Shown here one piece after another: positions 2,877-64,000 of a stretch of 64,000 nt of DNA. Both the position numbers and the translations under genes were made by a program. Source of the DNA: Squalus acanthias (taxonomy: Eukaryota); assembly GCA_030390025.1 (NCBI GenBank), contig CM059431.1, positions 111,540,001-111,604,000 of the forward strand, in the 5' to 3' direction. Numbering within the stretch: the first letter of the stretch is position 1; every line of letters starts with the position of its first letter. The notes below the pieces were generated by a model that saw only the letters and a list, made by a program, of their open reading frames with translations, made no database searches and was not told the origin of the DNA.

Positions 2877-5800
2877 CTGCCACACAAAGGCACCCTCTTT
2901 AAAAGCAGATCGCAGCACGCACTGCAACTTGTACTTCCAACTCCACACCCTCATGTTGTGCAATAACAAACAACTAGTAATAAATGAATTCACTTGTTTT
3001 CATGGAGAAATGTGAGAAGTCGCACAACACCAGGTTATAGTCCAACAGCTTTATTTGAAATCACAAGCTTTCGGAGCGCTGCTCCTTCGTCAGGTGAAGG
3101 AGCAGCGCTCCGAAAGCTTGTGATTTCAAATAAACCTGTTGGACTATAACCTGGTGTTGTGCGACTTCTCACATTTGTCCACCCCAGTCCAACACCGGCA
3201 TCTCCGCATCATGGAGAAAGGAATCGAAGGATATGTTGATGGGGTGAGGTGAGGTAGGGTGGGAGGAGGCTCATGTGGAGCATAAACACCGGCACAGACC
3301 AGCTGGGCCGAATGGCCTGTTTCTGTGCTGTAAATTCTATGTAATTCTTTTTGACATTTTGGATTTCATTTAACAGGAAGGAGACCTTTCAGGGCTCATT
3401 TTTAAATTAAATGGTTAGACAGGATATGGTCAATTTTAATTTGTTTACATCTTTATTTTTGTTATGCATTTTATTCCACCAATTTTCTGCCTTTACAATT
3501 CTATGAACATCTTTGTAGAAATGACGATTGCTGCGATCCGAGGGGAGGCGAGGAGGAGTCCGATACTGTGGGAGACACAGTTAGTAATCAAGCACTGACC
3601 TTGACTAAGAGCAGTGTGAACCTTCTCCATGTCAACCTTCACCTTCGCCCTTCCCGGAGTGGTTAGCATTTTATCCCAAATGGCAGACACCTCTTTTTGG
3701 CAAAGCACAAACTCTTCGTAGTCCAATTTCACTTTTCTGGCCTGAAGTTCGTCCCTGCTTGCTGTAATTTTACATTTAAAAAAGTCCATCAAATTAATAA
3801 TTCAGGAACCGTACAGCAGCACAGTATTCAAACAGTACATCTCTCCTCCTCGTTCCCGAGCAATAACTACAGCTGAGCAAGGCCTGAGCAGATTACGGTC
3901 ACTTGGACGCCTGCCTCCTCTCCTAAAGGGGTTGCTTCAGGCCGAGTTGCGGCAGCATAGTTGCCAGCTGCCCTTGCGGCAGCTCGGCCATGCCACCAGT
4001 CTTCACGTGTGAGCTGGCAGCCAACTATTGACCCGTGGGACGGGGCAGTGCAGCCAGGTTCGATCGTGCTCTCACTCAACACGTGCACTTCCGGCAAAGG
4101 GTGACTGTGAGCACTGGATAGCGACCAGGGGTGACGACCAATGCTCCCGTTGCGTTGCGCGGCCGCACAGCGGTCTGGAGGTCCCGCGCAGCCGGCTCAC
4201 CGGCTTTTAAATGGAAAAACTGCTCAGGCGCGGAAATTTGAGTGGGCCGCGCGGCCCGTTAAAGGGGCCACGCACCCAAAAAAAAAAAATGAGAGGGAAC
4301 ATTGGTGACGTTTACTTCTATCACTTGTAGGGGGTTGCCCCTGTGATTTTTCTCCCCGGTTGCTGGCAGCAGTGTCCTGGAGATTAGTCTTTAATTCCGG
4401 GAGACTCCAGGGCAATCCGGGCGGGTTGGCGACCCTGCTCACTTGGCCAGGAGATGCTGAGGCCAACTGCAGCGTGACCGACTATCAGTACAGACTGCTG
4501 ATCACAGATGGGGGCCTTGCTGGTCGAATCGGTTATCACGCGAGACAGCGCATCTGCTGCCTTCTCAGGACTTGCCGATCAATTATTTTTAACCCTCGTT
4601 TCACTGACGGAAACCAGGACCGAAAGCCTGCATTCCTTCTATTCACCGGGAGCATAAGCTTTGCTAAAAGCTCTTAAGATTTTCTGTGCGGGAGCCGGAA
4701 ACACTCTGTGCCTCTCTGTTTGCAATTGCGGTTGGTAACTCTTAACACTAAACGTGCGGGCTGATTCCACCATCAGGTGCTCCCAACTAGCAAGGCGTGC
4801 TGGTCAAAAACATTCATAAAGTTGCCAGGCCACCAGGCCTGTTGCACTGCCACACCTTGTCAGTTTCTATTCCCATTAAAAAGGCTCCTTTACAATCATT
4901 CACTCGCAGGGCTCGACATTAGAATGGAACTGCTCTTACCTTCTACCAAAGGCACCATATTTGAAAAGAACTGAAATCTCCTCGACAGCATTAAGAATGT
5001 GACAGTATAACAGTCGTCAATTACATGTGATATCAGGAAACTTGAGATTAGCTTTGCAACAAAACATGATTTAAACAGATTACATATCGACTACTTGAGG
5101 AGAAATGATGGCTTTATTGCTCAAAAGAACAAGATCAATGCAGGGCTTATTATATCCTTGGACCACGATAGATTCAACTGTCTGTCTGTCCCGAGGGTCC
5201 CATCACTACAACTGGATGGCGCATCCCATGTTATATAAATATATAGTGCAATACTGATGTCCTCCCATAGATTCCACCAGTGCATTTAGTGCACACCAAG
5301 TCTTGGAAAGGCTATCAGAAAGACTGAACAGGTTGGGGCTCTTTTCTCTAGAAAGGAGAAGTCAGAGGGGTGACCTCATAGAGGGCCTTAAAATCATGAA
5401 AAAGACTTGCATTTATATAGCGCCTTTCACGTCCACCGGACGTCTCAAAGTGCTTTACAGCCAATGAAATCCTTTTGAAGTGGTGTCACTGTTGCAATGT
5501 GGGAAATGCAGCAGCCAATTTGCGCACAGCAAGCTCCCACAAACAGCAATGTGATAATGACCAGATCATCTGTTTTTGTTATGTTGGTTGAGGGATAAAT
5601 ATTGGTCAGGACACTGGGGATAACTCCCCTGCTCTTCTTCGAAATAGTGGCCATGGGATCTTTTACATCCACCTGAGAGAGCAGACGGGGCCTCGGTTTA
5701 ACGTCTCATCCGAAAGACGGCACCTCCGACAGTGCAGCACTCCCTCAGCACTGCACTGGAGCGTCAGCCTAGCTTTTTATGTGCTCTGGAGTGGGACTAT

Positions 5801-29800: not shown

Positions 29801-32800
29801 GCGAGTCAGCAGAACGTTTTACATCTCTCCCCATTTTTATTCCCATTGAAATCAATAGAAAGAAAGAAAAGACTTACATTTGTATAGCGCCTTTCACGAC
29901 CACCGGACGTCTCAAAGCGCTTTACAGCCAATGAAGTACTTTTGAAGTGTAGTCACTGTTGTAATGTGGGAAACGCGGCAGCACAAACAACAACGTGATA
30001 ATGACCAGATAATCTGTTTTAGTGATGTTGATTGAGGGATAAATATTGGCCAGAACACCGGGGATAACTCCCCTGCTCTTCTTCAAAATAGTGCCATGGG
30101 ATCTTTTACGTCCACCTGGGAGAGCAGACGGGGCCTCGGTTTAATGTTTCATCCAAAAGACGGCACCTCCGACAGTGCAGCACTCCCTCAGCACTGTACT
30201 GGAGTGTCGGCCTAGATTTATGCTCTCAAGTCCCTGAAGTGGGAATTGAATCCACAACCTGCTGACTCAGAGGCAAGTGTGCTACCCACTGAGCCACAGC
30301 TGGCACCTAAATAAAAACCCGGAGTGATGTACTCACCACATTACAGGAAATATGTGATTGCACTAGAGAGGGTACAGAGGAGATTTGCCAGGACTGGAGA
30401 ATTTTAGCTATGAGGAAAGATTGGATAGGCTGGGGTTGTTTTCTTTGGAACAGAGGAGGCTGAGGGGAGATTTAATTGAGGTGTATAACATTATGAGGGG
30501 CCTAGATAGAGTGGATAGGAAGGACCTATTTCCCTTAGCAGAGAGGTCAATAACTAGGGGGCATAGATTTAAAAGTAATTGTTAGAAGGATTAAAGGGGA
30601 GTTGAGGAGAACTTTTTTCACCCAGAGGGTGGTGGCGGTCTGGAACTCACTGCCTGAAAGGGTGGTAGAGGCAGAAACCCTCATCACATTTAAAAAGTAC
30701 TTGGATATGCACTTGAAGTGCCGTAACCTGCAAGGCTACGGATCAAGAGCTGGAAAGTGGGATTAGGCTGGATGGTTCTTTTTCAGCCAGCACGGACACG
30801 ATGGGCCGAATGGCTTCCTTCTGTGCCGTAAATTTCTATGATTCTCTGATTCACTATTGCCCATTTTACACTATTGCACGAAGTCAAGATCTACCCCAAA
30901 GAGTGATCAATGCGCGGAATGGACTTCCAAATAGAGTAGTGGAGGCAAAAAACCTGGTAACAATTGGAGGCTGCAATGGGGGGATACTTTAGTGTATTTA
31001 TGAATGAATGAATTAAGATGGGACGAATAGCCTTCCTCATTCGTAATCATCTTGTGACAGAACAAAATGGGAACAGGACGAGGCCATTCAGCCCCTCGAG
31101 CCTGTTCCACCATTCAATTAGATCATGGCTCACCTGCAGCTTAGCTCCAACTACCTGCCTTGGTTTCCGTAACCCTTAGTAGCCTTGCCTAACAAAAATA
31201 AATCAAATAAAAGTATAATTCTTCCGTGATTTTTAAAAGGAGTTAAATGGTGAGATTCTCTCCTTAAAATCATACTGACATTCTTACCAACATTAAGTCA
31301 CACTTTGTGACAACTTGTGCGGTTGTCACAAGCAAAAGCGGATAACACAGTGTAAGCTTGCTACAAAGATTCGTAAATATTTATTCACTGCAGACCACAG
31401 CAATTAGAGCATCAATGAAACAGTGACAGACAGCTGACACGACCACAGGCACATCAATTAGTCACACGGACCAGGCAACAGGTGCAGTATTAGGGCAGAC
31501 TTTGCAAGCAGGCCGCAGGCTGCTCTCACCTCTTGGAGGTCCCGCTCTCCGACTGCTGCAACAGCTTGCCCGAGTTGGTGTAAAAGGGCTTCAGGAAAGA
31601 AGGGGTGGACAGGGATGAGGGAAGGCTGCTGGAAGTGGATTCGTTCTCTGAGTTACCGCGATTGCGTCTCACGATATTGATGGGGCTGAGCAAGGGGAAC
31701 CAGAAGAGGGGGGGGGGGAAAACACAGAAAAAAAAATCAACAGTCAAATGATGGAAGTGAGGAGCGACAGTCTGTCGAGTGAAAAGTGCTGTAAGTAGGA
31801 AACTGCAGGAGTTCCCCAGGAGATAGATTTTTTTTTAAAATCCTGATAATATTGGAAATACACAACAGATCTGGCAGCTTCGAGAAAGATAGATTATCAT
31901 TTTGGGTAAATACTCGGAATTCTGATGCAGGGTCTCCAACCGAAACATTAGCCCTGAAACTTGTCTCGGCGCAAAACAGCCGGTATCGGATTGGCCGCCC
32001 GTCATACGCAGCGCCCACTATTCAGATCCATTGGCTGCGATGTGGGAATTTTACATGAAGACCGCCCCCTTTAAACAATAATAACTCACTGCAGCTTGTA
32101 AATTAGATCACTGAACATTTGGAAACAGATTCAACCTAACATTGCATGCTACCCTGAACTGAGATATGAAGCTGATTATGTGAAAGTTATTTGATGGTAT
32201 CTCAGAGCAACTGGTGTTTATTTTGAAAACTTCTAACTTTTCAAATTAGACGTGTAGGTGTCTCGTTTCTTCAGTGTATTACTGTATTCTGCACTACGCT
32301 GCAGAGAGCATTTTACACACTTTGATTTCACACCTTTTTATGAGAGTGGCGTATTTCAGAACGTTAATGTTAAGATTTATACGACTTTAGATGGAAATAA
32401 TTCAGTAACATATCACAGTTAATCTACGGATAGACTAAAAATATTGTGCTTTTTTTTTAAAAAGGAAGTTCAGATACATCTTTAGCACTCGCAGGCTGGG
32501 AGCGTGTATCAGGAATTTGGATCCTTAGCCCCCCCACAATGTTTCATGCATGTATGAACTCCCGATATGTGCTCCTGGCCCACATCGCTCTGCACTGGGA
32601 TCACTAAAGATAAAACTTTACTTTTAATTCTTTGCTCTCCTCTATTTAGGTCTCCCCTATGTCATGAACAATCTTCTGACTGAGAGGCCAGGTATCCAAG
32701 CTGTTTCTGGATCTTTGCCAATTCTGCTATTGAGGTGCCACGCTCTGATTTTCCCATCCTCTAGGAAACCATCTGCTCTCTGATCTTCCCCCTCCGTAGC

Positions 32801-41800: not shown

Positions 41801-44800
41801 ATTTACACACTACTAACGACATGATGTTAAACTTAAAGGCATAAAAATTCGGTGGCTTTGCGCCTCCCGTTAGCGCCCTAAGAGGGCACTAACGGGGCGC
41901 AAAGCAACTAGCGCCCGGGCGTGGCGCTGCGAACGCCTCCCGTGAAATTCAGCGGGAGGTTAGCGACGGCGGTAATCGTTAGTGCCCCGCGGTGCTGTGC
42001 CGCCGGCAATGACGTCATCGCCGTGCGCAGCGCCCCGCTCGCGCCTCGGCCGCAATCTTCGGTAGCACCCCCTGACTTACCGCTGGACGCTATGTCCGAC
42101 AGGATATGGGGGACCTACCTGCGGCCGGGGCGGCGCTAATTAAAGGGAAGATGCCGGGCGGCCATTTTTGTTGCTGGCCGCCTGCCAACACCTGTCCCCT
42201 CTGCCGTCCCCGGCCTCCTCTGCAGCCCCCCCCCCCCCCCCCCCCCCCCGCGGAGTGCCAGCTGCGCTCCGTGAGCCCAGCACCTTTCTTGAGTGCCAGG
42301 CTCTTTTGCCGGTACTTCCGATCCCCAGGGGGCCCAGCAGGGACCCGGGTCGCGCTGCGCAAGGCCCCTCCCCTTTAAGAAGGGGAGGAAGGCCTGCAAT
42401 ACCGCGGCATGTAGCGCCGTGATATTCACTCACAGCGCCCCAAGAGGGAGGTGGGGCGCTTCCAGTAGCACCGCGCCTCCCTCTTGGGGTGCTACCAGTG
42501 AATTTCGGCCGCAGAGGCGCAAATTTTTTCGGGGCGCTACCTACTCAGTAGGAGTGACTGAAAATATTTTTAACTTTACCTAGGTGAGAGCAGTGTTTAT
42601 GATGAAATACTTCACCCTATATTTATCCCAAGTAATGGCCCCTTTGAGTAATATTACCCATTCTCCTATTTCATTGAAATTCTTAGGAGCAAAAAGTTCA
42701 TCGGATGCTGTAATAGAAATAATAACTGCAAATATATGGCATTATACCCCAGGAGAGACGTTTACTTTTAAAAATAGTAAAACTGTTTCACTCATTCTGC
42801 ACAGGTTCCTTGACGCAGCAGGCAACAGTTTGTTCTGTTGCCCACCAATATCACTCATTACCAATTATGTGCAATGACTCACACCAAGTCCCGTTCACCC
42901 ATCACCCCTGTGCGCGCTGACCTACACTGGCTCCTGGTCCGCCAACGCCTCGATTTTAAAATTCTCATCCTTGTTTTCAAATCCCTCCATGGTCTCGCCC
43001 CCTCTCCCTATCTCTGTAACCTCCTCCAGTCCTACAACTCTCCGAGATCTCTGCGCTCCTCCAAATTCTGGCCTCTTGAGCATCCCCGATTTTAATCGCT
43101 CCACCATTGGGGGCTGTGCCTTCAGCTGCCAAGGCCCTAAACACTGGAATTCCCTCATTAAACATCTCTGCCTCTCTCTCCTCCTTTACGATACTCCTTA
43201 AAATCGACCTCTTTGACCAAGCTCCAACAACCTATCCTAATATCTCTTTGTGGCTCGGTGTCAAGTTTTGTCTGATAACACTCCTGTGAAGCATCTTGGG
43301 ACGTTTTACTACGTTAAAGGCGCTATATAAATGCAAGTTGTTGCTGCTATTGTTGCGTGTGGGTCGCAGAAGCTGCCCAAACATATCAAGTGACCTCTCT
43401 GTGACCCCACACTCTCATCGAGTGAAGAGCACAGCATCGCTGGATTTACCCGATACTGTACACAATCTGATCTGCTGGAGGTTTCTTTAAATATCCATGA
43501 TAAAGGTACGAATGGGAAGTTAAAAAGACCAGGAAGTTAGAACGAGAAGCAGATTACATTGCTTCCCTCGCCACAACTATAGTTCGCAACTGCAATTCAT
43601 CAACAGCTCTAAAAACAACAACTAGCAAAAAAAACCAGAAAATTAACCCTTTGCATTCTTTGCACTGCCTCCAGATTAACTCTGGGTACAGCCTAAACAA
43701 GGGTCTGAGCTGGGCCCATTTACTGTACATACTCACAATTCAGATTAAAAATGTAGGTGCCCGTGGTGGCGGTTTGAAGGTAGGGGATTGTTTTCACCGT
43801 CGGTTATTGTGGTGGACGGTACTACATTCGGTTCCTGGCTCCTGGCCTGTTGCTGCTTTCCTGTCCACCTCCGACAATGCAGCATTCCCTCAATAATGCA
43901 CTGTTCCGAAGTGCCAGATTATCGTGAAATGGGGTCCAACCCACCGCCTTCTGACTCGGAGCAAGAGCGTTACCAACTGAGCCAAGCTGACACCAACTGT
44001 GGGACAGCAACAGGGGTCAATTCCCCAGCTCGCCACTGTATTGCCACAGATGAGGGGTTTTCAGTTATAATAGGGGTCAAACATTTTGTGAAAGTGAGTC
44101 AAGCTCGAGGGTCACAAAATATTTTTTTGACTTTCAGTCTGTTTGTCCCTGTGACGCTGGAAGCTAATTACCGTCTGCGTCACCTGCTGTAATATCATGA
44201 TTGTACTATGATTACCATGGTGCGGCAGGTAAAGGCTTTCAACTGTTGTAGGATTTCTTAAGCCAGCAGAATGAAGCACTACAATAATATAATATGATGC
44301 TAAGACAGTAGATGGCACTGTCACCAAGCAACTGCTGGGTTTCTTCAGATGAATCTACAGAATCTCTATTAAGCTGTCAGAAGGCCTCCTGATGAGAGCT
44401 CAGTTGCTAAGTCCATTGTCTGGTGTGGAACTGAGGTCGGATCAGGAAGATCCACATTTGCATTCCTGGTCTATGTTGAGGTACCTGCTCACAGCCAGTG
44501 ACAATTGGGGTGCTACCACTGGCCTTAGCACTGCTGAGTTAGGGAATGAAGTAGGGCTTGGCTCCTGATCACGACTCAGTGACCCGGGCTGGGAAATGCG
44601 TGTACGCAAACATTAGGTCAGGAGAGGATAAGCCTCAAAGGTGACGGTCCCATGCCTGCTGAAACTGCTTGTCTCGCCAATCGGGAGAGGGAACAGTGAG
44701 TGCCTGACGCCTGTGATACAAAAATCAGTGCCTTCCCAAGAGAAGAGGCGAAAACGGGAAGACGTTTGTGCAAAGTGCGTGCTCACTTTCAACACAGCTG

Positions 44801-47800: not shown

Positions 47801-50800
47801 AGTAGAGAAGTTATGCCGAACCTTTATAAAGCGCTGGTTAGGCCACAACTGGAGTATTGCGTCCAGTTCTGGTCACCACACTTTAGGAAGGATGTGAAGG
47901 CCCTTGAGAGGGTGCAGAGGAGATTTACCAGAATGGTTCTGGGGATGGGGGATCTTAACTACAAGGACAGGTTGGAGAAGCTGGATTTGTTTTCCTTAGA
48001 GCAAAGGAGGTTGAGGGGTGGTTTGATAGAGGTGTACAAGATTATGACGGGTTTGGATAGGCTAGACAGGGAAAGGCTGTTCCCACTAGTTGATGGTACA
48101 AGGACTAGGGGACACAGATTTAAGGTTTTGGGCAAGAGATACAGCGAGGAAAAACTTTTTTACGCAGCGAGTGGTGAGGACCTGGACTCGCTGCCGACGG
48201 AAGTGGTGGAAGTGAAGACACTCAATGTTTTCAAGGGGAGACTGGATAGGCACTTGAGGGAAATAAACTTGCAGGGCTACAGAGATAGAGCGGGGGAATG
48301 GGGCTGACTGGATTGCTCTACAGAGAGCCGGCACAGACCCGATGGGCCGGATGGCCTCCTTCTGTGCCGTTATGACTCTATGGGGGCTAAATTCGGTTGA
48401 TTTGCGCCTCCCGTTAGCGCCCTAAGGGGCGCTATCGGGGGCGCAAATCAACTTGCGCCTGGGCACGGCGCTGCTAACGCCTCCCACGAAATTCAGCAGG
48501 AGGTTAGCGGCGGCACTGTGCCGCCAGCGATGATGTCATCACTGTGCGCAGCACCCCGCTCACGCCTCGGCTGTAATATTGGATGGCGCCCCCCGACTTA
48601 CCGCTGGACGCTATGTCCACTGGGTTCAGGGGGCCTACCTGCGGCCGGGGCGGCGCTAGTTAAAGAGGAGGTAGCGGACGGCCATTTTTGTTGCTGGCCA
48701 CCTGCCAGTACCTGTCCCCGTTGCTGTCCCCGGCCCCCGTGAAGCCCCCCCCACGGGGTGCCGGCTGCTCTCTGTCAGCCCGAGTGCCGGGCTCGTTTGC
48801 CAGCACTCCCGATCCTTGGTGGCCCAGCTGGGCGCCGGGACACACTGTGCCAGGCCCCTCCCCTTTAATAAGGGGGCGCTACCCAATTTTTACCCCAATG
48901 ACTCTATGAATCCACAGTGATGTACTGTACAGGCCCAACCTCTTGCTATCAGATGGAAATGCCGATAGCACGCCACACAACAATGTTATGGTTTAACGTT
49001 GGCGACCACACATGAATTCAAACTGAGTAAACTGCCACTGCTTCAGGTCATGCACCAAGTAAAGGGTTTATTTCGGGGTTAAGCACAACAATGTAAATAA
49101 ACGTCATGCCACTGAATTTCAGCTCAGGCGCCTTTCAATTCATGATAAGCCACCTATTTATACCGAGTTGCTTTCTGCAGCTTTACTGGAACAGTGTTAT
49201 ACCCCATGTACCCATCTCAATGTGTGAATGCTGATTACAACCTCAAATAATTGGTATCATGCAGTCCCAATTCCATCTGTCTTCGTTTCATCTGCAGGTG
49301 ATATGCTCAGTGCTATTGATTTACATGGGATGCCCACGACTATTACCAAGAAACATGCACTCTGCGACTGGGCACTGCACAAAAACAAGTCCACCCAGTC
49401 TTTATTTGTAAGAACTATATGGTTAAGAATTTATTACTCCTGCTTTCCTGTTGCTAAATTTAGTCCCTCTGATTTTGGCATTTGGAACAGAGCGGAGATA
49501 CTGACTAAGAGTTCTGAACTGTGGCACTAGGAACACAATCTTAATAAGCTGGCAGATCTGGCCTCCCAATGGCACAGCATGATGATTAATTAAGCGCTGT
49601 ACCTCGAGTGGCAGAACTGAAGTTTTCCTCTACAATTATCCACATGATGCATTTCTAATTTCAGTCAGAACATCGCAGGAAAACATGGCAGAGAGGAGGC
49701 ATAATTTGGAGGTGGCATTGTGTAATGGAGGCATGGCACAGAGGAGGCATGATATGGTGAGGAGGCACGGTCATGGACAAAGCATGGCAAGGATAGTATA
49801 GTTTAAAGGAAGTATGATGTGAAGGAGGCATGGCAGGAAGAGACTCAGTTCAGAGGAGGTTTGGGTGGAGGAGACAGTTCGGAGGAGGTTTGGGTGGAGG
49901 AGACAGTTTGGAGGAGGTTTGGGTGGAGGAGGCAGTTCGGAGGAGGTTTGGGTGGAGGAGACACAGTTCGGAGGAGGTTTGGGTGGAGGAGACACAGTTC
50001 GGAGGAGGTTTGGGTGGAGGAGGCAGTTAGGAGGAGGTTTGGGTGGAGGAGGCACAGTTCGGAGGAGGTTTGGGTGGAGGAGGCAGTTTGGAGGAGGTTT
50101 GGGTGGAGGAGACAGTTAGGAGGAGGTTTGGGTGGAGGAGACAGTTAGGAGGAGGTTTGGGTGGAGGAGACACAGTTTGGAGGAGGTTTGGGTGGAGGAG
50201 ACACAGTTTGGAGGAGGTTTGGGTGGAGGAGACACAGTTTGGAGGAGGTTTGGGTGGAGGAGACACAGTTCGGAGGAGGTTTGGGTGGAGGAGACACAGT
50301 TCGGAGGAGGTTTGGGTGGAGGAGACTCAGTTCGGAGGAGGTTTGGGTGGAGGAGGCAGTTCGGAGGAGGTTTGGGTGGAGGAGACACAGTTCGGAGGAG
50401 GTTTGGGTGGAGGAGGCAGTTCGGAGGAGGTTTGGGTGGAGGAGACAGTTCGGAGGAGGTTTGGGTGGAGGAGACAGTTCGGAGGAGGTTTGGGTGGAGC
50501 ATGCTTAGAGTGGAAAACAAGAGCTTTACGAGTGAGGGGAAAGAAAAAAAACTTCAACTTTGCTCCTAACACAGCTCCTAGTCACAGGATGATGGCTATT
50601 ACAACACAGAAGGAGGCCGTTCGGCCCATCGCTAGCTCTTCAACTAGAACTATCTACTCTACTCCCATTTCACAGCTCTTTCTCTGTATCCTTTTATATG
50701 CTTCCTCATAAAAATCATCTTGGCTGAAGAACAGCAACCAAAGAATGGTGTGAGCTGCTGATCAAAGACGAGAAGAAACATTTCCAGATGGATTTGGAAC

Positions 50801-56800: not shown

Positions 56801-59800
56801 TGGAACTGTTGCAGGGCAGGTTTTGTGCCCACACGTGGCGGCTGACACTGACCTGGGCGGCTATCCAGGGTTAACTATTTCTGGTAGGATCCCGCTGGTA
56901 TTTTAAGCAATGCCAGGAAGCCTACCTCTGGATGGTGGGCGAGGGCAGGGGATTGGAAGAGTGGAATATTGCCTATGCAAGCCTCAGTCACCTGCAGCAG
57001 TAGAGCAATGGCTGCTTCCAGAGCAGCTGAAGAACTGGACACATATTTGCAACACATTGAAAAAAGCTCTGCTAAGCGAGTGCGATCGATCCCTCCTTGA
57101 GTCACTGGTGAGGGGGAGGGAAGCCATTTAAAACTTGAACCACACCTCCTTAGCAATACTGAATGCCAGAACACAATGGGGATTCCTGACATCGAACATT
57201 ACCAAGGTGTTAATGAAGGATAATATATCAGATAGCCTATTTTCCTCCAACAACGTGCTATTTAAATTCACCCGCCCACATATTTCGTGTCTGCTATCAC
57301 TTCTGGAGGGAAAGCCCAGAAGTGGCAGCGTCCAATGGGGAGCCAGCGTAATGGCGCCCGGCCGATTTCCCGCCTCCATTTTGGAACTGCCCGAAAATGG
57401 GCAGTAAAGGGGAGGAGAACCTCACTCATTCCGATTTAGGAGCAGGGAGAATATTCTACAATATCATTTGCTACGTGCAGATAATTACTGAATCCCAGAG
57501 GTTGCAGCTGGGGTGCACCTAGCTGGCTGGTGCCCCATATTTACCTTCAATCCGTTCACAGAGTTTGTGCAGGTAATGCATGGGACACGCCTCACACAGT
57601 TTAATCTGAGTCTTAGCGTTCTGCAGGGCAGCCGCAGTGCTAAAGGCCTGCTTCAAGGTCAGCATGACTTCATCCACCTGTCAAGGGGCACAGTTCAAAT
57701 GAATCACTGCACAAAGCGAGTATCTACTGCTCAAGAAAGAGCAAAAAGCACACCATCCAACGGCTAACATTTTTTAAACTATAACAACTTGCATTTATAT
57801 AGCGCCTTTAACATTGTAAAACGTCCCAAGGCGCTTCACAGGAGCGATTATCAGACAAAATTTGACACCGAGCCACGTAATGAGATATTGGGACAGATGA
57901 CCAAAAGCTTGGTGAAATAGGGTAGGCTTTAAGAAGCACCGTAAAGAGGAGAGAGAGGTAGCGAGGCGGAGAGGTTTAGGGAGGGGATTCCAAACCCAAC
58001 GGTCTAGGCAGCTGAAAGCACGGCCGCCAATGGTGGAGCGATTAAAATCGGGGATACGCAAGAGGCCAGAATTGGAGGAGCGTAGGAATCTCGAAGGGTT
58101 GTGGGGCTGGAGGAGGTTACAGAGATAAGGAGGGGCGAGGCCATGGAGGGATTTGAAAACAAGGCTGAGAATTTTAAAATCGAGGCGTTGCTGGACCGGA
58201 AACGAATATTGGTCAGCGAACACAGGGGTGATGGGTGACCGGGACTTGGTGCAAGTTAGGATACGGGCAGCAGAGTTTTGGATGAGCTCAAGTTTATGGA
58301 GGGTACAAGCTGGAAGGAGAGCATAAATATAATATCCTTTGGTTTTTCAAAACTATTGAATAATGTGAGTGGATGACAACATTGGGCTCATAGCTGCAAA
58401 GATGCACTGAAACCTGGTAGTTGTGAGGGAATAGCGTTAAAAAAATACAGTTGAAATAATAAAGTCCTGCAGCACATTGGATTAAATACAGCATATATGT
58501 TAGCTTAGCTCTCTCACATAGTCATTCTTTGCCGCTAACTCCCACAAAGATGTCATCAACATTCCCTGTTTAAACGAGCATCAAAAAATAAACAAGGGAG
58601 GAAATCAAACAAATATTCAAGTTAATCATATTAATTCATGACTTATAAAAGAAATCATGATGGTGAGCTCTCATTCCTTTGGAGAGGTTTTTTTGGCTTG
58701 GAGTTCGTCTTTCATTTTTGCCTGGAAACCAGAATTGTCACTTCTGCAAACAGGCAGTTTCTTGTTCGTCAAATGTGCTACTCAACTTGGAGTCCTTCCT
58801 TTGGGAGTAACCATCATGTGAGGAAATGGGTCAGATGATAAGACAATGACAGGACTTTATGTGAAAATAGTCCTGCAGTTAGAGAGACAAAAGCAACCAG
58901 AAGGATGAGTGTAAAACACACACACAAGAACCTGTGCTTGATAGGCTATTGCTTACTGCTAACATGTTCTTTAAAGCACATTTTTTACTTGATTAACTTA
59001 ATTGGAGAAAAAAAGGAAATGGGAAGATGCCAAACTTGGAGGGAACTCTGATTTAATTATCATCCAAAATAGGCCATCTGTGAAATATTTCTTTCTGTAA
59101 AAGTATAGGATAGTCACTAATAAATCCAATAAAGAATTCAGGAGAAAGTGTGGAACTCGCTACCGCATGGAGTAGTTAAGGCGAATAGCATAGATGCATT
59201 TAAGGTGCTGGGTAAGTACATGAGGGAGAAAGGAACAGAAGGATATGCCGATAGGGTTAGATAAAGTAGGGTGGGAGGAGGCTCAAGTGGAGCATAAATA
59301 CCGACATAGACCTGCTGGGCCGAACGGCCTGTGTCTGTGCTGTAAATTCTATGCAATATGTATCTATAAACATACCGATTCATTTCTGGCAATTGTGTAC
59401 TGGATACTAGTGGATCGCCTGTGGCATTGCTCATAGCCAGGACCTGCCGTGTGCTTTCCAATCATTACAGCAGTCCCACTGCAGCTTAAACACAACTGCG
59501 GATTGTCTATCACTGTAGCACAGCAAACTTACCAAAACAATATAAACCACATGACTAAGTAAAATATCACGCACTTACAGATACTGAATGATACAAACCT
59601 AAGCTTTAATATTTGTTGCACTATTTACCAACCACTTTAAAAAAAACTTGTTTAATCTGCAAAAAAAAAATTATTCTCCCCTCCCTTCTATGTACTATGG
59701 TGGACTTGCAGTTTACTTAAGATGCAAGCACTTTATTTATTTGTGTATTCTTCTCTCCACCCTCCACAAAAGTTTCCTTTCCTTTGCTCAGTTGTATATT

Positions 59801-62800
59801 ACAACAACAACAACTTGTATTTACACAGCGCTTTTAACGTAGTGAAACTTCCGAAGGCGCTTCACAGGAGCGTTATCAAACAAAATTTGACACTGAGCCA
59901 CATAAGGAGATATTAGGGCAGAAGAGGTGGGTTTTAAGGAGTGCCTTAAAGGAGGAAAGAGAGGTAGAGAGGTGGAGAGGTTTAGGCAGGGAATTCAGTG
60001 CTTAGACCTTGGCAGCTGAAGGCACGGCCACCAAAGGTTGAGCGATTAAAATCGGGGATGCGCAAGAGGCCAGAATTAGAGGAGCGCAGAGATCTCGGAG
60101 GGTTGTGGGGCTGAAGGAGATTACAGAGATAGGAAGGGGCGAGGCAATGAAGGGATTTGAAAACAAGGATGAGAAATTTAAAATCGAGGCGCTGCTTAAC
60201 CGGGAGCCAATGTAGGTCAGCGAGCACAGGGGTGATGGGTGAACGGGACTTGGTGCGAGTTAGGACACGGGCAGCAGAGTTTTGGATGACCTCAAGTTTA
60301 CTGAGGGTAGAACGTGGGAGGCCAGCCAGGAGTGCGTTGGAATAGTCAAGTCTAGAGGTAACAAAGGCATGGATGAGGGTTTCAGCAGCGATGAGCTGAG
60401 GCAGGGGCCATGTGACATGAGCACTTTGGGTAGTATAGTTCCACAAGAAGAGAGGGAAAACCCTAACCCGATTGCATGATGCATTACAGTCTCACACACA
60501 TAGAATATATCCAATGCAGCTGGAAACCAAAGCACTGAAAGCCCAGGTATAATCTACCTCATGTCTCAAGCTCCTGACAGAAGGACAGGCTTATGTGGTG
60601 ATAAGCACTGCCTGAAAGGGTGGTGGAAGCAGATTCAATAGTAAAATTCAAAAGAGAATTGGATAAATACTTGAAGGTAAAAAATTGCAGGGCTATGGGA
60701 AAAGAGCCGGGGAGTGGGACTAATTGGATAATACTTTCAAAGAGCCGGCACAGACATGATGGGCCGAATGGCTGAAGTGCTGCATCAGTCTATGATTCTA
60801 TGATAACTTCTTCCAGGGATTATGTATTTTACTATGTTTGTTACGAACAAAATGTCACTTTTAGCTTCATACATTCAACCTGAACGAAGCAGCAAAATGG
60901 CAGTTTTAAACAGTGCGAAGAAATCATCTGATGAGCCAGCTTTATCGTTGCTGCTTCATGAATGACAGCTTTAAAAACATATCGAGCGGGGGTGGCGGAG
61001 TGGTGATTCCTCAATTCTCTGCTGGTTACATGCTCCTCTGTTGTATTTTTGTTGCTTTTGATTTGAGACCATTTATTGAGTCCCATATTTCTTCCATAAT
61101 TGGACAGATAAATGGTCATTTGAGACAGTAATTATTTTTTGTTTGCCAGACAGACATGTGATCCTTTGGAGGTGCGACACCCGAACATGCGATACAATTA
61201 TGGCCTTGAAATTGGACCTCTTAGCGCCCGTTTTCCAGGTGCTACGCAGCCTCCTAAGACACCAAAATGGCGGACAGGAAGGCGCGCACACTCCCGCCAA
61301 ACGTACTGTTAACTGAAATGATGGTCAGATTCAATGCAGGAGCCAAATAATGTGCCTCAGGACGACGCTCCCTACTGCGCCAGTGCGGCAGTTCCATTTC
61401 CACGCCCATAATTCTGTGGTGCTTCTCTGAGTGACACTGCCTAGCCTGTGCAATGAGGACTGAATTCAAGAGCACTTGCGACTGGCAATGTTTCCTGCTG
61501 CCTAGCAGGAACTGGTGTGAGCCAGCCCAATCTCGCACAGTACAATCCTCTGTGAACACCAGAGAAATCTCAATGCAGTCTGCCTAAAATGAACAGGGAT
61601 AAACAGGACCCACTTCTAACACACTGCAACGCCCAGTCCCCTTAATGCTGGGATGCACGAATGCTGAATCTGAGTCCAGGCCCAGAACTGCAGTGCTTTT
61701 TTTTTTTTGGACCTCTGAAGTCTCCTACATTAAATTGCAGACTTTGATTTTCCGACTAAGCCTCACGTATTGGAAAAAGATCTGAAATAATTCCGGGGAA
61801 AAATGCCATCATTAGATTGAAATGAGAAGTCGCACAACACCAGGTTATAGTCCAACAGATTTATTTAAAATTACAAGCTTTCGGAGCTGTCGCTCCTTCT
61901 TCAGGTAGGGTAGCTGTGAGAGAATCTCCCAGAATTCACAATATAAACACAGAAAAAATGTATTCAAATCTTTTCAGGTAGGGTAGCTGTGAGAGAATCT
62001 CCCAGAATTCACAATATAAACACAGAAAAAATGTATTCAAATCTTTTCAGGTAGGGTAGCTGTGAGAGAATCTCAGGTAGGGTAGCTGTGAGAGAATCAT
62101 TTTTTCTGTGTTTATATTGTGAATTCTGGGAGATTCTCTCACAGCTACCCTACCTGAAGAAGGAGCGACAGCTCCGAAAGCTTGTAATTTTAAATAAATC
62201 TGTTGGACTATAACCTGGTGTTGTGCGACTTCTCATTTTTGTCCACCCCAGTCCAACGCCGGCATCTCCACATCATCATTAGATTGAGCATTGCATTGGC
62301 GGATTAATAAATCCCGTCACAATGTTACTGTGAGGTGGAATATTGGTTACATCTTCTTCCCCAATAATTAACAGCCTTCTATTGAAATTTCATTAAAATC
62401 ACACATTTTAATACTGCATCACATTAGCATGTCATTAATACTGGGAACATGCATTCTCCCCTTTTTGTTAAATGAGTAATTTCACCCCATAGATTCTTAG
62501 TGTTCCACATCAAAATAGAACTGGTCTCTAGTCCAAGTGCTTTTCCACAGTGATCGTAACCAGCCTCTTAAAGAAGCACTGTGCCATCACTGAGTAGATT
62601 GTACTAAATACGTGCTACTGGCCTGTTTTGTTGCAGTGCAAAATAATGGCTGAATAAAATAGCTAATAGCTGATCTTATTTTTCACTGAGAAGCCTACTG
62701 CCCCTTTTTTCAAGCCGTTACCCAGTCTATCCATTCCGACACCTAAAATGAAATAATTAGTCTCAAAATAAATTTCTCATCAAATTAACAAATGAATGCA

Positions 62801-63842
62801 TCCCACCCACAGCATGGCTCCATCAGCTGAAGTCATCGGGCTCTTGACTCGCAAACTTAAGGTCTCATGTTGAAGTCAAATTTTGTTTTTATTGCATGGG
62901 ATTTTTACCACTGTTTTAAGGATCAGATTCCTCAAGTGCACCTGTTTATAATTAAGTCCGCTGGTTTATGCTGACTGAATTAGTGAGATTCCATTGTTAC
63001 GTGTGATTTTCACCAGTGTTTTTTGGAGATTTAATTATATAATTTTGCCCATTTTTCCATGAAAACCGCAAGTCAATGGCTTTGGTCATACGTTCCAGAG
63101 CTTCCTGTTTTCCAAGTTAATTTGCTTCCATTGAGAGTAATATCCACCTCAGCAAGGAGAAAGATTTCCTCTGTGCGCTGAAATTGTAAACCCATTTGTA
63201 AACAGGTTTTCGATTATTTGACACACACAATCCACAGAGGAAATCTTCCCAAGCGGTCACGGTCATGTGAACGACGTCCCTCTTGCTCTTTCAAGATCAT
63301 CGTGGGGAACTATGCAGCTTCCTTGTGACAGGAAGAGGCTGCATGGTTTGCAAGATACTTCCCCAAAGTCATCCGAGAACGGATCTCGCTAACTTTGTGC
63401 ACCTTATGCTTCTAGGGTTAGACACTGCAGCTTTCCCAAGTAGCTGCTTTTGCAAAGTCAGTTATGCCCTAAACAGCCAGAAGAGAGACAAAAATGGCCT
63501 GAGTGCATTCAGTACAACAGTCTGAAACCTCCTAATATCCAACATATCCATGCCAAGTATATTCTACCTGAAAGAGACCAGTCATATTAGTCCTGGTAAT
63601 GGTTGCCTAAATGGCTTGTGATGAGAACCACTTTTAAGCACAGCAATACACAATTTTCACATTTATAGTCCAAGTTCTGATAAAGTTTTACTCTGAAAGG
63701 TTAGATGTGCAATTGCCACCAGACAGAAGGGACTTACCAGCGATTCATTGGCACACTGAAACACGTAGCACACATACTGATTTAGTCCCGGTTCAACACT
63801 TTCTCGACAAATGAACCCAAAATGGTCAACGTGTTTTATACC
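2718..63842 (-). CDS. TBC1D4: TBC1 domain family member 4 (AS160), partial, 12 exons: 63738-63842, 57545-57677, 53890-53981, 52401-52511, 51808-51927, 35723-35800, 34979-35220, 31530-31685, 11563-11735, 10848-11057, 3600-3761, 2718-2876
   Basis: All exons have AG/GT boundaries and join in frame. The spliced peptide follows AS160 as recalled ([64 protein letters not shown]). The gene runs off both window ends. Confidence 0.95.
3008..3212. mobile_element. Penelope-like element terminal fragment with inverted duplication and hammerhead-like motif
   Basis: Near-perfect inverted arms of about 80 bp; 11-bp flanking direct repeat TCATGGAGAAA (3000-3010, 3209-3219); same family as 61820-62276. Confidence 0.7.
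3061..3097 (-). ncRNA. Minimal type-I hammerhead ribozyme-like motif
   Basis: UCAC-CUGACGA-A-GGAGC(AGC)GCUCC-GAAA-GC-UU-GUGA. Confidence 0.6.
3600..3761 (-). CDS. TBC1D4: TBC1D4 exon ([17 protein letters not shown]...[13 protein letters not shown])
   Basis: 162 bp, attacag|CA ... CAAG|gtcagt, phase 1-1. Confidence 0.94.
4139..4304. mobile_element. hAT-like MITE; adjacent hAT-like fragment at about 4328-4437
   Basis: TIR CAATGCTCCC/GGGAACATTG; 8-bp flanks GTGACGAC/GTGACGTT (6/8 match). Confidence 0.55.
5300..6222 (+). mobile_element. CR1/HER1-like LINE 3' fragment interrupted by a DeuSINE; other CR1 fragments at about 3213-3346, 17330-17755(-), 30329-30850, 39270-39430(-), 46865-47120(-), 55215-55700(-), 59105-59356, 60607-60802
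   Basis: [13 protein letters not shown]...WNSL translation and CR1 3' tail GGGCCGAATGGCCT. Confidence 0.8.
7945..8704. mobile_element. PIF/Harbinger-like MITE, same family as 38523-39258 in the opposite orientation
   Basis: TIR GGCCCAGATTTTGC/GCAAATTCCGGGCC; internal similarity to the 38.5 kb copy; TSD degenerate. Confidence 0.6.
10225..10727. mobile_element. Degenerate Harbinger-like MITE
   Basis: Starts GGCCTGGAAATT, flanked by AGA/AGA, right TIR weak. Confidence 0.4.
10848..11057 (-). CDS. TBC1D4: TBC1D4 exon ([14 protein letters not shown]...[27 protein letters not shown]), calmodulin-binding region
   Basis: 210 bp, tttctgtag|AT ... GAAG|gttagt, phase 1-1. Confidence 0.93.
11563..11735 (-). 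CDS. TBC1D4: TBC1D4 exon ([18 protein letters not shown]...[33 protein letters not shown])
   Basis: 173 bp, tgcttcag|T ... GAAG|gtacag, phase 2-1; donor is the first in-phase GT after the conserved block. Confidence 0.9.
12937..13511 (+). mobile_element. Young CR1/HER1-like LINE 3' fragment inserted into a DeuSINE
   Basis: Uninterrupted 160-aa ORF2 C-terminus ([11 protein letters not shown]...WNSLP); TSD TGTCGG at 12931-12936 and 13512-13517. Confidence 0.88.
18626..19062 (+). mobile_element. HE1-like V-SINE followed by a CR1-type tail
   Basis: tRNA head (TAGTGGTTAG, GGTTCGAATC); V-domain-like TGTGGAGTTTGCACATTCTCCCCGTGTCTGCGTGGGTTTCCTCCGGGTGCTCCGGTTTCCTCCCACA; internal duplication of about 46 bp. 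Confidence 0.8.
20213..20938. mobile_element. PIF/Harbinger-like MITE
   Basis: TIR GGCCCGTATTTTCCGAT/ATCGGAAATTACGGGCC; 3-bp TSD AAT. Confidence 0.75.
21560..22610 (+). repeat. Purine-rich low-complexity tract ending in a 15-bp tandem repeat (GAAAAGAGCAAAGGT-like, about 6 copies, 22515-22602); similar tract at about 1380-1670
   Basis: Composition seen directly; interrupted by an L2 fragment. Confidence 0.8.
23147..23638. mobile_element. PIF/Harbinger-like MITE
   Basis: Perfect 12-bp TIR GGGCTGGATTTT; TSD TTT. Confidence 0.75.
24263..24510 (+). mobile_element. Tx1/L1-group LINE 3' end fragment
   Basis: Translates [56 protein letters not shown], resembling Tx1 ORF2 C-termini, followed by a T-rich 3' UTR. 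Confidence 0.6.
25130..26340. pseudogene. Fossil PIF/Harbinger transposon: decayed transposase (+, about 25130-26100) and convergent Myb/SANT-like ORF (-, about 26145-26340)
   Basis: Frameshifted motifs in the expected order: [43 protein letters not shown]; minus strand [13 protein letters not shown]...EVAARV...TWL*PR*K...K|gtgagt. Confidence 0.55.
25341..25694 (+). mobile_element. RTE-clade LINE 3' fragment
   Basis: [16 protein letters not shown]...W..LAQDR.KWR...[21 protein letters not shown] (C-terminal zinc finger); imperfect TSD starting AGGTGTA (25330, 25695). Confidence 0.85.
29055..29684. mobile_element. GC-rich Harbinger-like MITE; family members at 39797-40691, about 41838-42541 and 48382-48896 (opposite orientation)
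   Basis: Shared terminal block AATTC.GT.G.TTGCG.CTCCCGTTAGCGCC; GGCCATTTTTGTTGCTGGCC core shared with the 41.8 and 48.4 kb copies; possible TSD TAG. Confidence 0.7.
29758..30897. mobile_element. MITE carrying nested DeuSINE and CR1 insertions
   Basis: Imperfect TIR of about 47 bp beginning GGGGTAGAT.TTGACTT.GTGC; TSD AAA. Confidence 0.75.
31530..31685 (-). CDS. TBC1D4: TBC1D4 symmetric cassette exon ([52 protein letters not shown]), equivalent of the long/muscle-isoform exon
   Basis: 156 bp, phase 2-2, long pyrimidine tract then ttgctcag|C ... AG|gtgaga; [12 protein letters not shown] resembles mammalian PSFLKSFYQNSG. Confidence 0.88.
34979..35220 (-). CDS. TBC1D4: TBC1D4 exon (DGSPGESPP...[15 protein letters not shown]...[10 protein letters not shown]), Thr642-equivalent Akt/14-3-3 motif
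   Basis: 242 bp, ggtgcag|GAC ... AG|gtaaaa, phase 0-2. Confidence 0.94.
35723..35800 (-). CDS. TBC1D4: TBC1D4 exon ([26 protein letters not shown]), Ser588-equivalent Akt motif
   Basis: 78 bp, tttttttag|GGC ... AGG|gtgagt, phase 0-0. Confidence 0.93.
38523..39258. mobile_element. PIF/Harbinger-like MITE
   Basis: TIR GGCCCGGATTGTGCGGT/ACCGCAAATTACGGGCC; TSD ATT. Confidence 0.75.
41106..41830. mobile_element. Harbinger-like MITE, right end obscured by the adjacent GC-rich MITE
   Basis: Starts GGCCCAGATTT; internal similarity to 7945-8704. Confidence 0.5.
46398..46800 (+). mobile_element. tRNA-like-headed SINE with a family-B LINE tail
   Basis: A/B-box-like TAGTGGTT and GTTCAAATCC; from about 46695 matches the 3' end of LINE family B. 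Confidence 0.7.
47696..48381 (+). mobile_element. CR1/HER1-like LINE ORF2 C-terminal fragment with 3' tail, within a nested repeat cluster (46865-48900)
   Basis: [17 protein letters not shown]...[16 protein letters not shown]; tail repeat ATGACTCT. Confidence 0.88.
49840..50499 (+). repeat. G-rich minisatellite, 22 units of 29/31 bp (GGAGGAGGTTTGGGTGGAGGAG-(AC)ACAGTTC)
   Basis: Units counted directly from the GGGTGGAG core. Confidence 0.95.
51362..51520. mobile_element. Short hairpin-like MITE
   Basis: TIR of about 28 bp GGGGTAGATGTTCAGCTTGCTGCCCGGG; flanks CAT/CAA. Confidence 0.65.
51808..51927 (-). CDS. TBC1D4: TBC1D4 exon ([40 protein letters not shown])
   Basis: 120 bp, poly-T ccaaag|CCT ... 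CGG|gtaagg, phase 0-0. Confidence 0.94.
52401..52511 (-). CDS. TBC1D4: TBC1D4 exon ([37 protein letters not shown])
   Basis: 111 bp, cgacag|AAA ... ATG|gtacag, phase 0-0. Confidence 0.93.
53890..53981 (-). CDS. TBC1D4: TBC1D4 exon ([31 protein letters not shown])
   Basis: 92 bp, tttctccag|GT ... CAG|gtaaca, phase 1-0. Confidence 0.95.
54181..54544. mobile_element. Tc1/mariner-pogo (Tigger-like) MITE
   Basis: Perfect 26-bp TIR CAGGAAACTCTTTATTAACCGGCACC; TA TSD on both sides. Confidence 0.85.
57545..57677 (-). CDS. TBC1D4: TBC1D4 exon ([45 protein letters not shown])
   Basis: 133 bp, ttgacag|GTG ... GAAG|gtaaat, phase 0-1; not in the ORF track. Confidence 0.95.
61820..62276. mobile_element. 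Penelope-like element terminal fragment with inverted duplication, internal 73-bp tandem repeats and two hammerhead-like motifs
   Basis: Inverted arms of about 140 bp (61820-61960 / 62098-62238); 14-bp flanking direct repeat CATCATTAGATTGA (61807-61820, 62274-62287). Confidence 0.72.
62151..62186 (+). ncRNA. Minimal type-I hammerhead ribozyme-like motif (mirror copy on the minus strand at 61872-61907)
   Basis: UAC-CUGAAGA-A-GGAGC(GACA)GCUCC-GAAA-GC-UU-GUA. Confidence 0.6.
63738..63842 (-). CDS. TBC1D4: TBC1D4 exon, PTB2 domain ([35 protein letters not shown])
   Basis: 105 bp, ttccag|GGT ... CTG|gtaagt, phase 0-0. Confidence 0.95.
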
Positions 63843-64000
63843 CTGGAAGGATACAGTTAAAAGATGCCAGGTTAGATGTAAGGGAATCAGTAAAAAGAGT
63901 AGAAGCAACTTCTGAAAGTCTTCCTATCAGCAACCACCAGGGTTAAACTGACAAAATACCATCTTTTCTTGTTAGGACTGCCTCTGGCTGAGCTCTGTCA

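What the first reader, a model, noticed from the sequence alone, without database searches (positions are those of the whole stretch)
61872..62186. Hammerhead ribozyme motifs with a compensatory stem change between two Penelope-like copies
Seen: this copy reads UAC-CUGAAGA-A-GGAGC[GACA]GCUCC-GAAAGCUU-GUA, and the copy at 3061-3097 reads UCAC-CUGACGA-A-GGAGC[AGC]GCUCC-GAAAGCUU-GUGA. Within the motif the differences fall only at the variable N7 core position, in loop II, and in a compensatory stem-I pair (C-G versus U-A). Established: Penelope-like elements carry minimal hammerheads whose very short stem III is completed by dimerising through a palindrome. Inference: the AGCU palindrome makes this an obligate-dimer ribozyme cleaving after CUU, with an atypical extra A after A9. 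The class is known; this shark variant may be uncharacterised.
Basis: partly seen in the sequence, partly recalled or inferred. Interest (0 to 1): 0.7.

Follow-up and report, generated by a model that had tools for sequence, protein, structure and literature searches.

The report
Penelope-element minimal hammerhead, recent fold-back insertion
The motif is a real, intact copy of the small self-cutting RNA motif already described for Penelope-like jumping genes, sitting in a very recent hairpin-shaped insertion in a shark-like TBC1D4 intron where it is probably inert, so the catch is correct but ordinary.

Summary
The motifs are real: three complete minimal type I hammerheads (62151-62186 +, its mirror 61872-61907 -, 3061-3097 -); none of 200 shuffled windows gave more than one hit. 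Each lies in a short head-to-head fold-back insertion with a target-site duplication (14 and 11 bp) and a one-sided tail of about 38 nt, the published layout of truncated Penelope-like element (PLE) ends. Contigs from two samples carry the empty site, so the 467-bp insertion is very recent; the family is highly repeated. The 'atypical' extra A is the published consensus for PLE hammerheads, and a turtle motif of 2014 has the same core, AGCU palindrome and CUU site. At these loci the only second copy is antisense, so the motif is predicted to be buried in a duplex. Cleavage is untested and I could not link this family to an RT/GIY-YIG ORF. This scan reported the same kind of motif on other shark-like DNA several times. 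New member of a known kind; low interest.

The parts
61807..61820 (.). left copy of the 14-bp target-site duplication
   Evidence: D4, 100% identical; present once in empty-site contigs of runs X1 and X5
61820..61973 (-). inverted, tail-less pLTR arm (5'-truncated)
   Evidence: 141 nt perfectly complementary to 62098-62238; relatives continue beyond 61973 (loose ends)
61872..61907 (-). complete minimal hammerhead, mirror copy; sense to the TBC1D4 pre-mRNA
61973..62098 (-). three partial repeats of the upstream pLTR (73, about 27 and about 26 nt), each ending at A6 or N7 of the hammerhead core
   Evidence: (D1, D2); junctions not confirmed by independent reads
62098..62238 (+). direct pLTR arm (5'-truncated)
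   Evidence: I1
62151..62186 (+). complete minimal type I hammerhead: helix I 62151-53 with 62184-86, core C3=62154 to A9=62160, extra A 62161, helix II 62162-75, G12-A15.1 62176-79, AGCU palindrome 62179-82, predicted cut between 62183 and 62184
   Evidence: numbering by established hammerhead convention
62239..62276 (+). 38-nt tail present on one arm only; last 3 nt overlap the target site
   Evidence: family 3' ends cluster at 62276 and at 62235-62249 (loose ends)
62274..62287 (.). right copy of the 14-bp target-site duplication
3000..3010 (.). left copy of the 11-bp target-site duplication of the second insertion
   Evidence: D2; no empty site tested
3009..3097 (-). inverted tail-less arm of the second insertion (sister subfamily, 91.5% identical over 118 nt)
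3061..3097 (-). complete minimal hammerhead with 4-bp helix I; sense to the TBC1D4 pre-mRNA
3096..3213 (+). direct arm with tail; begins inside the core at G8, so its hammerhead is incomplete
3209..3219 (.). right copy of the 11-bp target-site duplication
   Evidence: D2
63720..63845 (-). TBC1D4 exon upstream (in the gene's direction) of the 62-kb insertion; the next exon is 57537-57677
3598..3771 (-). TBC1D4 exon upstream of the 3-kb insertion; the next exon is 2710-2877

Best explanation
Both sites are dead-on-arrival, 5'-truncated insertions of the terminal repeat (pLTR) of a very abundant, recently active Penelope-like retrotransposon family, and the motif is that element's minimal hammerhead carried along as a passenger. 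Shown: the motif, the head-to-head arms, the one-sided tail, the target-site duplications, the empty site, the intronic position. Inferred from work on other PLEs: the element's endonuclease nicked both strands of an AT-rich target 14 bp apart; reverse transcription started at two internal sites about 38 nt apart (giving one arm with and one without the tail); both cDNAs stopped early and were joined head to head; one cDNA restarted three times at the hammerhead core. Inferred: in the parent's tandem transcript two same-strand motifs share a 4-bp AGCU helix III (probably with help from the element's protein) and cut slowly after CUU. At these two loci the motif is inert, because its only neighbour is its antisense copy, which TBC1D4 transcription makes first.
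For: Motif above chance. Architecture matches published PLE insertion units: adjacent inverted truncated pLTR, 30-40 bp tail on one end, 8-10 bp duplications, head-to-head junction (PMC8557442, PMC3846280 passages); opposite-strand motif pairs 100-700 bp apart are described in PMC4209133. Empty site in 2 of the 3 DNA runs laid; two clusters of 3' ends; depth falling from the tail toward the 5' side; many different fold-back joints in relatives. Variants at 3% or more hit 0 of 23 core, helix II and palindrome positions and 3 of 6 positions expected to be free (N7, loop II, H17; Fisher p=0.0055), and H17 varies U to C, within the NUH rule. The dimer minimum-energy fold of this copy pairs the palindrome between strands. 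Helix II probability is 0.0 in all three read-through folds against 0.985-0.990 for a single arm.
Against: No RT or GIY-YIG match among 149 of 149 open frames of 85 aa or more in the window, no relatives in viral or metagenome contigs, no genome held: PLE identity rests on architecture. No Rfam hammerhead model matched. The core is no more conserved than the downstream pLTR (0 of 23 versus 6 of 87, p=0.34), variants reflect a few related subfamilies, and recruitment at 82% identity favours conserved copies. The full double-hammerhead fold scores 8.2 and 9.8 kcal/mol above the dimer minimum (the model ignores core contacts). No RNA evidence: the one raw RNA run gave 0 reads.
Confidence: 0.85

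Rival explanations
1. The element is a PLE end, but in this family the hammerhead no longer cuts; it is kept as a structural signal (protein binding or a pause site for reverse transcription).
For: In the anole element, hammerhead mutants did not affect insertion in vitro, and no RNA-seq reads began or ended at the cut site (PMC11167929); minimal motifs cut poorly even as dimers. Breakpoints here fall at A6/N7/G8, not at the cut site. Arm starts in 19 listed fold-back joints spread over 62151-62248, with 2 of 38 at the cut site, both from one joint.
Against: All catalytic positions are intact in both subfamilies, helix I covaries between them, and H17 varies only to C in the listed variants.
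Confidence: 0.3
2. A non-autonomous non-LTR retrozyme: tandem monomers, each with a hammerhead, that replicate through circular RNA.
For: There is a short tandem array inside the insertion; retrozymes were found in the one chondrichthyan sampled in bioRxiv 10.64898/2026.07.22.740005.
Against: [quoted passage not shown] Unique target-site duplications flank a fold-back, not an array.
Confidence: 0.05
3. A fold-back DNA element (MITE-like) whose hammerhead look is chance.
For: Long perfect inverted repeat with a target-site duplication; no Rfam hammerhead hit.
Against: Arms are asymmetric (tail on one side), duplications differ in length (14, 11), the central junction differs from copy to copy, and the motif is far above chance.
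Confidence: 0.03
4. A host-domesticated intronic ribozyme that regulates TBC1D4 pre-mRNA.
For: Both insertions put a complete motif on the sense strand of TBC1D4 introns; one lies about 120 nt from an exon.
Against: The 62-kb insertion is absent from two other samples; both motifs are predicted to be paired with their antisense arm; no same-strand partner within 58 kb.
Confidence: 0.02

Closest known systems
Minimal hammerheads (min-HHR) in the pLTRs of metazoan Penelope-like elements (Cervera and De la Pena 2014, PMC4209133), especially the Chrysemys picta row of Fig. S3
   Same: Type I fold, CUGANGA core plus one extra base, G10.1-C11.1 pair, no loop III, palindromic 15.1-16.1; the turtle row has the same core with extra A, the same GAAA-GC-UU and CUU site; single dispersed copies and opposite-strand pairs.
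   Different: Helix I and II sequences differ; no chondrichthyan row among the 56 of Fig. S3; no ORF link shown here.
Insertion unit of endonuclease-positive PLEs: pLTR, adjacent inverted truncated pLTR, 30-40 bp tail (PMC3846280, PMC8557442; mechanism in PAc of Anolis, PMC11167929)
   Same: Head-to-head arms, one-sided tail, target-site duplication, AT-rich target (71% and 64% AT), two clusters of 3' ends.
   Different: No ORF at all in these copies; duplications are 11 and 14 bp against 8-10 bp in the rotifer examples; three internal restarts at the hammerhead core, which I did not see described in the passages read; PLE clade not determined.
Animal non-LTR retrozymes (bioRxiv 10.64898/2026.07.22.740005; PMC7229834 seen as search listing only)
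   Same: Non-coding, type I hammerhead, related to PLE pLTRs, reported in one chondrichthyan.
   Different: No tandem units with complete motifs here.

Membership tests
PLE minimal hammerhead (min-HHR) | Core CUGANGA and GAAA, cleavage triplet NUH, type I topology | tested here: met
PLE minimal hammerhead (min-HHR) | [quoted passage not shown] | tested here: met
   A at 62161; 62162 G with 62175 C; defined
PLE minimal hammerhead (min-HHR) | Missing or tiny helix III with palindromic 15.1-16.1 | tested here: met
   AGCU at 62179-62182; pairs between strands in the dimer minimum-energy fold of this copy, though not in that of the 3-kb copy
PLE minimal hammerhead (min-HHR) | Compensatory changes across a family | tested here: inconclusive
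   one pair with a change on both sides, 237 of 500 shuffles reach it; both letters recur in other runs but no deep alignment could be built
PLE minimal hammerhead (min-HHR) | Self-cleavage as a dimer, not as a monomer | not testable with these tools
   bench assay; the raw RNA run gave 0 reads
Rfam hammerhead families | Match to a curated covariance model | tested here: not met
   no hammerhead family up to E 10 on the window or on 62120-62230; these models were not shown to cover minimal motifs
Endonuclease-positive Penelope-like element | Adjacent inverted 5'-truncated pLTR, 30-40 bp tail on one end, target-site duplication | tested here: met
Endonuclease-positive Penelope-like element | Hammerhead in the pLTR | tested here: met
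Endonuclease-positive Penelope-like element | Single ORF with telomerase-like RT and GIY-YIG endonuclease in full-length copies | tested here: inconclusive
   these copies are truncated; no RT or GIY-YIG Pfam hit in 149 frames of the window; no genome or longer copy reachable
Non-LTR retrozyme | At least two consecutive tandem units with complete hammerheads | tested here: not met
   against the criterion

The most novel reading that the evidence does not exclude
The breakpoints are a genomic footprint of what happens to the hammerhead during transposition: three restarts in this copy end at A6/N7, the truncated arm of the 3-kb copy begins at G8, and one joint in related DNA has both arms starting exactly at the first base after the predicted cut. 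If this holds across thousands of copies of a family that is still inserting, the template RNA is broken or the RT is stalled at the folded core, and some cDNAs are made from ribozyme-cut RNA, which would give in vivo evidence on the open question of what PLE hammerheads do.
Probability: 0.1. Interest if true: 0.55.

Novelty: new member of a known kind. Interest (0 to 1): 0.17.

Why it matters
As it stands it extends a motif class described in 2014 to one more vertebrate lineage and marks a PLE family that is still, or was very recently, inserting. The role of PLE hammerheads is unsettled (PMC8557442, PMC11167929), and a young, very abundant family with polymorphic insertions is good material for asking whether insertion breakpoints track the cut site; this locus alone does not answer that.

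Tried and rejected
No whole genome is held, so no genome-wide alignment, covariance model or search for a parent ORF was possible. Exact-pattern scans found 0 loci in viral contigs and metagenome contigs. Rfam gave only hairpin-driven miRNA and weak chance matches, all below gathering score. Pfam on 149 of 149 frames of 85 aa or more gave DUF3350 (a TBC1D4 exon) and three sub-threshold hits, no RT or GIY-YIG; this scan also missed the evident LINE fragments, so it is insensitive to short decayed pieces. Seven weak BLAST hits elsewhere in the window are not hammerheads. The idea that the C-G pair of the 3-kb copy is a junction artefact was rejected. A splice acceptor ending at 62144, just before helix I as in Drosophila Penelope, was considered and dropped: its A is T in about half or more of related depth (62143 and 61915). 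A first conservation test (0 of 28 versus 8 of 14) used classes chosen after seeing the data and is not relied on; the a-priori version is. Enrichment of arm starts at the cut site was not seen in the 19 joints that were listed, a subset of those found. Lunse et al. on dimer cleavage is not held. The sequence look-up, the near-place look-up and one word look-up of earlier findings returned nothing.

Full report
OBSERVATION. A third, identical to the first, lies at 61872-61907 on the minus strand. A descriptor for minimal hammerheads finds only these three, also when relaxed; 200 dinucleotide shuffles of the window gave a mean of 0.055 hits, 11 of 200 with one hit and none with two. By the standard numbering (established knowledge) C3 is 62154, an extra A follows A9, helix II is 5 bp, A15.1 and U16.1 are separated by only G and C, and the predicted cut is between 62183 and 62184, after CUU. 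Single-strand folding recovers helices I and II (z -2.1 for this copy, -1.4 for the 3-kb copy). No Rfam hammerhead model matches.

THE COMPENSATORY CHANGE. The C and U of the 3-kb copy fall in the 2-nt overlap between its arms, so they could have come from the other arm. Laying public contigs on 61500-62600 (4 of the 23 runs) settles this: loose ends ending in TTC before 62152 occur in X1, X5 and X12, and G at 1.3 makes up 26%, 13% and 84% of summed depth. U at 2.4, which restores a fourth pair, makes up 53-66% at the two arm positions listed, so this copy belongs to a subfamily with the shorter helix I. Linkage of the two sides in single molecules is seen only in the window's own copies. Listed variants (3% or more, both arms pooled) touch 0 of 23 core, helix II and palindrome positions and 3 of 6 positions expected to be free (p=0.0055), but the downstream pLTR is nearly as constant (6 of 87; p=0.34), the variants come from a few related subfamilies, and recruitment favours conserved copies. 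This is consistent with selection on the fold, not proof.

WHAT THE INSERTIONS ARE. The 62-kb unit has a perfect 141-nt inverted repeat (61820-61960 with 62098-62238), a 38-nt tail on the right arm only, and a 14-bp direct repeat at both ends; the 3-kb unit has the same plan with an 11-bp repeat and a right arm that begins at G8. The two units are 91.5% identical over 118 nt. Contig 1 of X1 and contig 17 of X5 run from 61806 straight to 62274, that is, the empty site with one copy of the duplication, defining a 467-bp insertion. X12 does not cover the flanks, and X21 (RNA) gave 0 reads. The empty-site contigs differ from the window at a few flank positions, so they are another haplotype or a very close relative. 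Summed depth on the element reaches about 4 million against about 10 on the flanks; the tool warns this is no copy number, but it marks a very abundant repeat. Family 3' ends cluster at 62276 (124 and 114 contigs) and at 62235-62249; many joints connect the two arms at different points (15 of 77 shown in table 5; 18 loose-end rows shown, 346 not shown). Between the arms lie three partial repeats that each end at A6 or N7 of the core; these junctions are not confirmed by independent reads and could be an assembly error. Both insertions are in introns of TBC1D4, on the minus strand, whose closest named relatives are from sharks.

HOW IT MOST LIKELY WORKS. The layout is that of truncated ends of endonuclease-positive Penelope-like elements: adjacent inverted truncated pLTR, head-to-head junction, 30-40 bp tail at one end, short duplications (passages of PMC8557442 and PMC3846280). 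In the anole element PAc both DNA strands are cut at AT-rich sites and reverse transcription starts at two internal sites whose distance is the tail; its hammerhead cut only with the protein present and was not needed for insertion in vitro (PMC11167929, main text parts 1-2 of 4; a search of its supplements gave no text hits, and its figures and .gbk file could not be read). I infer the same route here. For the ribozyme, a 2-nt linker cannot close helix III, so activity needs a partner strand. In a two-strand fold of this copy the minimum-energy state keeps helix II and pairs the palindrome between strands (-25.1 kcal/mol), whereas the full double hammerhead scores -16.9; for the 3-kb copy -19.1 against -28.9, with a different minimum. 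The dimer is plausible, not shown. At these loci the second copy is antisense: helix II probability is 0.0 in read-through RNA of either strand of the 62-kb unit and of the minus strand of the 3-kb unit, against 0.985-0.990 for one arm alone, and on the TBC1D4 pre-mRNA the antisense arm is made first. The motifs are therefore most likely inert passengers here.

COMPARISON WITH WHAT IS KNOWN. Cervera and De la Pena 2014 (PMC4209133; main text parts 1-2 of 4, supplement parts 1-2 of 3) list a nucleotide between 9 and 10.1, the G10.1-C11.1 pair and a palindromic 15.2-16.2 as conserved features, report families full of compensatory changes and motif pairs on opposite strands 100-700 bp apart, and found no monomer and low dimer activity. 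By my count of Fig. S3, 54 of 56 rows show the extra base, 30 of 56 an A, and 10 of 11 vertebrate rows an A; the Chrysemys row has the same core, palindrome and CUU site as this copy. No chondrichthyan is among the 56 rows. A 2026 preprint (10.64898/2026.07.22.740005; parts 1-2 of 5 and passages) reports hammerhead retrozymes in one chondrichthyan; its supplements are closed and may hold this family. Lunse et al. on dimer cleavage could not be read and is known to me from a review passage (PMC6765202); it may include shark variants. PMC6155905 was seen in passages; the supplement of PMC8557442 was listed, not opened. Five searches returned no paper on a shark PLE hammerhead; the library lacks most subscription papers and Repbase, so this is weak. 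Earlier notes of this scan report the same kind of motif and fold-back copies in this and other shark-like genomes, and intact PLEs with paired motifs in this genome; I could not check that those are the same family, and do not count them as support.

MEMBERSHIP AND VERDICT. It meets every sequence feature of the PLE minimal hammerhead and the structural features of a PLE insertion unit; cleavage and the RT + GIY-YIG ORF are untested or inconclusive (0 such hits in 149 frames; no longer copy reachable). It fails the tandem criterion of retrozymes. The boldest reading left open is that breakpoints at the core (A6/N7 restarts, G8 start, one joint with both arms at 62184) record ribozyme folding or cutting during transposition; in the 19 listed joints only 2 of 38 arm starts are at the cut site and 1 of 38 at 62158-62160, so I give it 0.1. 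Verdict: observation confirmed, interpretation partly supported, new member of a known kind, interest 0.17.

Noticed in passing
window 61807-62273: The 467-bp insertion is absent from contigs of two other samples (X1, X5): a presence/absence polymorphism in a TBC1D4 intron, and a perfect 141-bp hairpin that could be a substrate for dsRNA editing or dicing (inference).
   Followed up: partly
window 61973-62098: Three partial repeats all end at A6 or N7 of the hammerhead core, and the right arm of the 3-kb insertion starts at G8; restart points coincide with the 5' side of helix II, not the cut site.
   Followed up: partly
run X1, joint 61874 to 62184: A fold-back joint in related DNA (2 contigs) has both arms starting exactly at the first base after the predicted cut, with 7 extra letters between; one of 19 listed joints, so possibly chance.
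   Followed up: partly
window 61902-61910 (+) and mirror 62148-62156: Read antisense, helix I plus the core start spells a splice-donor-like site; with the two common variants at 61908 and 61910 (both about 94% in X5) it equals the canonical donor consensus (consensus recalled).
   Followed up: no
window 62274-62276 and 3209-3213: Both target sites begin with letters identical to the element's tail end (3 and about 5 nt), suggesting target-template microhomology at priming; the tail appears to run into an ATG.
   Followed up: no
window 62202-62258: The pLTR downstream of the hammerhead folds into a long stem that brackets the inner 3'-end cluster, like the AC-rich stem-loop where the anole element starts reverse transcription; folding z-scores are not significant (-0.9, -1.2).
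   Followed up: partly
window 29613-29671 and 41851-41909: GC-rich near-perfect hairpins that gave weak miRNA matches, inside GC-rich repeats at about 29.0-29.7 kb and 41.8-42.6 kb; possibly internal palindromes of a non-autonomous DNA element.
   Followed up: no
window 49771-50711: Degenerate tandem array with long open frames on both strands, in a TBC1D4 intron.
   Followed up: no
window 31532-31687: TBC1D4 exon present in isoform P0002 and skipped in P0004: an alternatively spliced exon.
   Followed up: no
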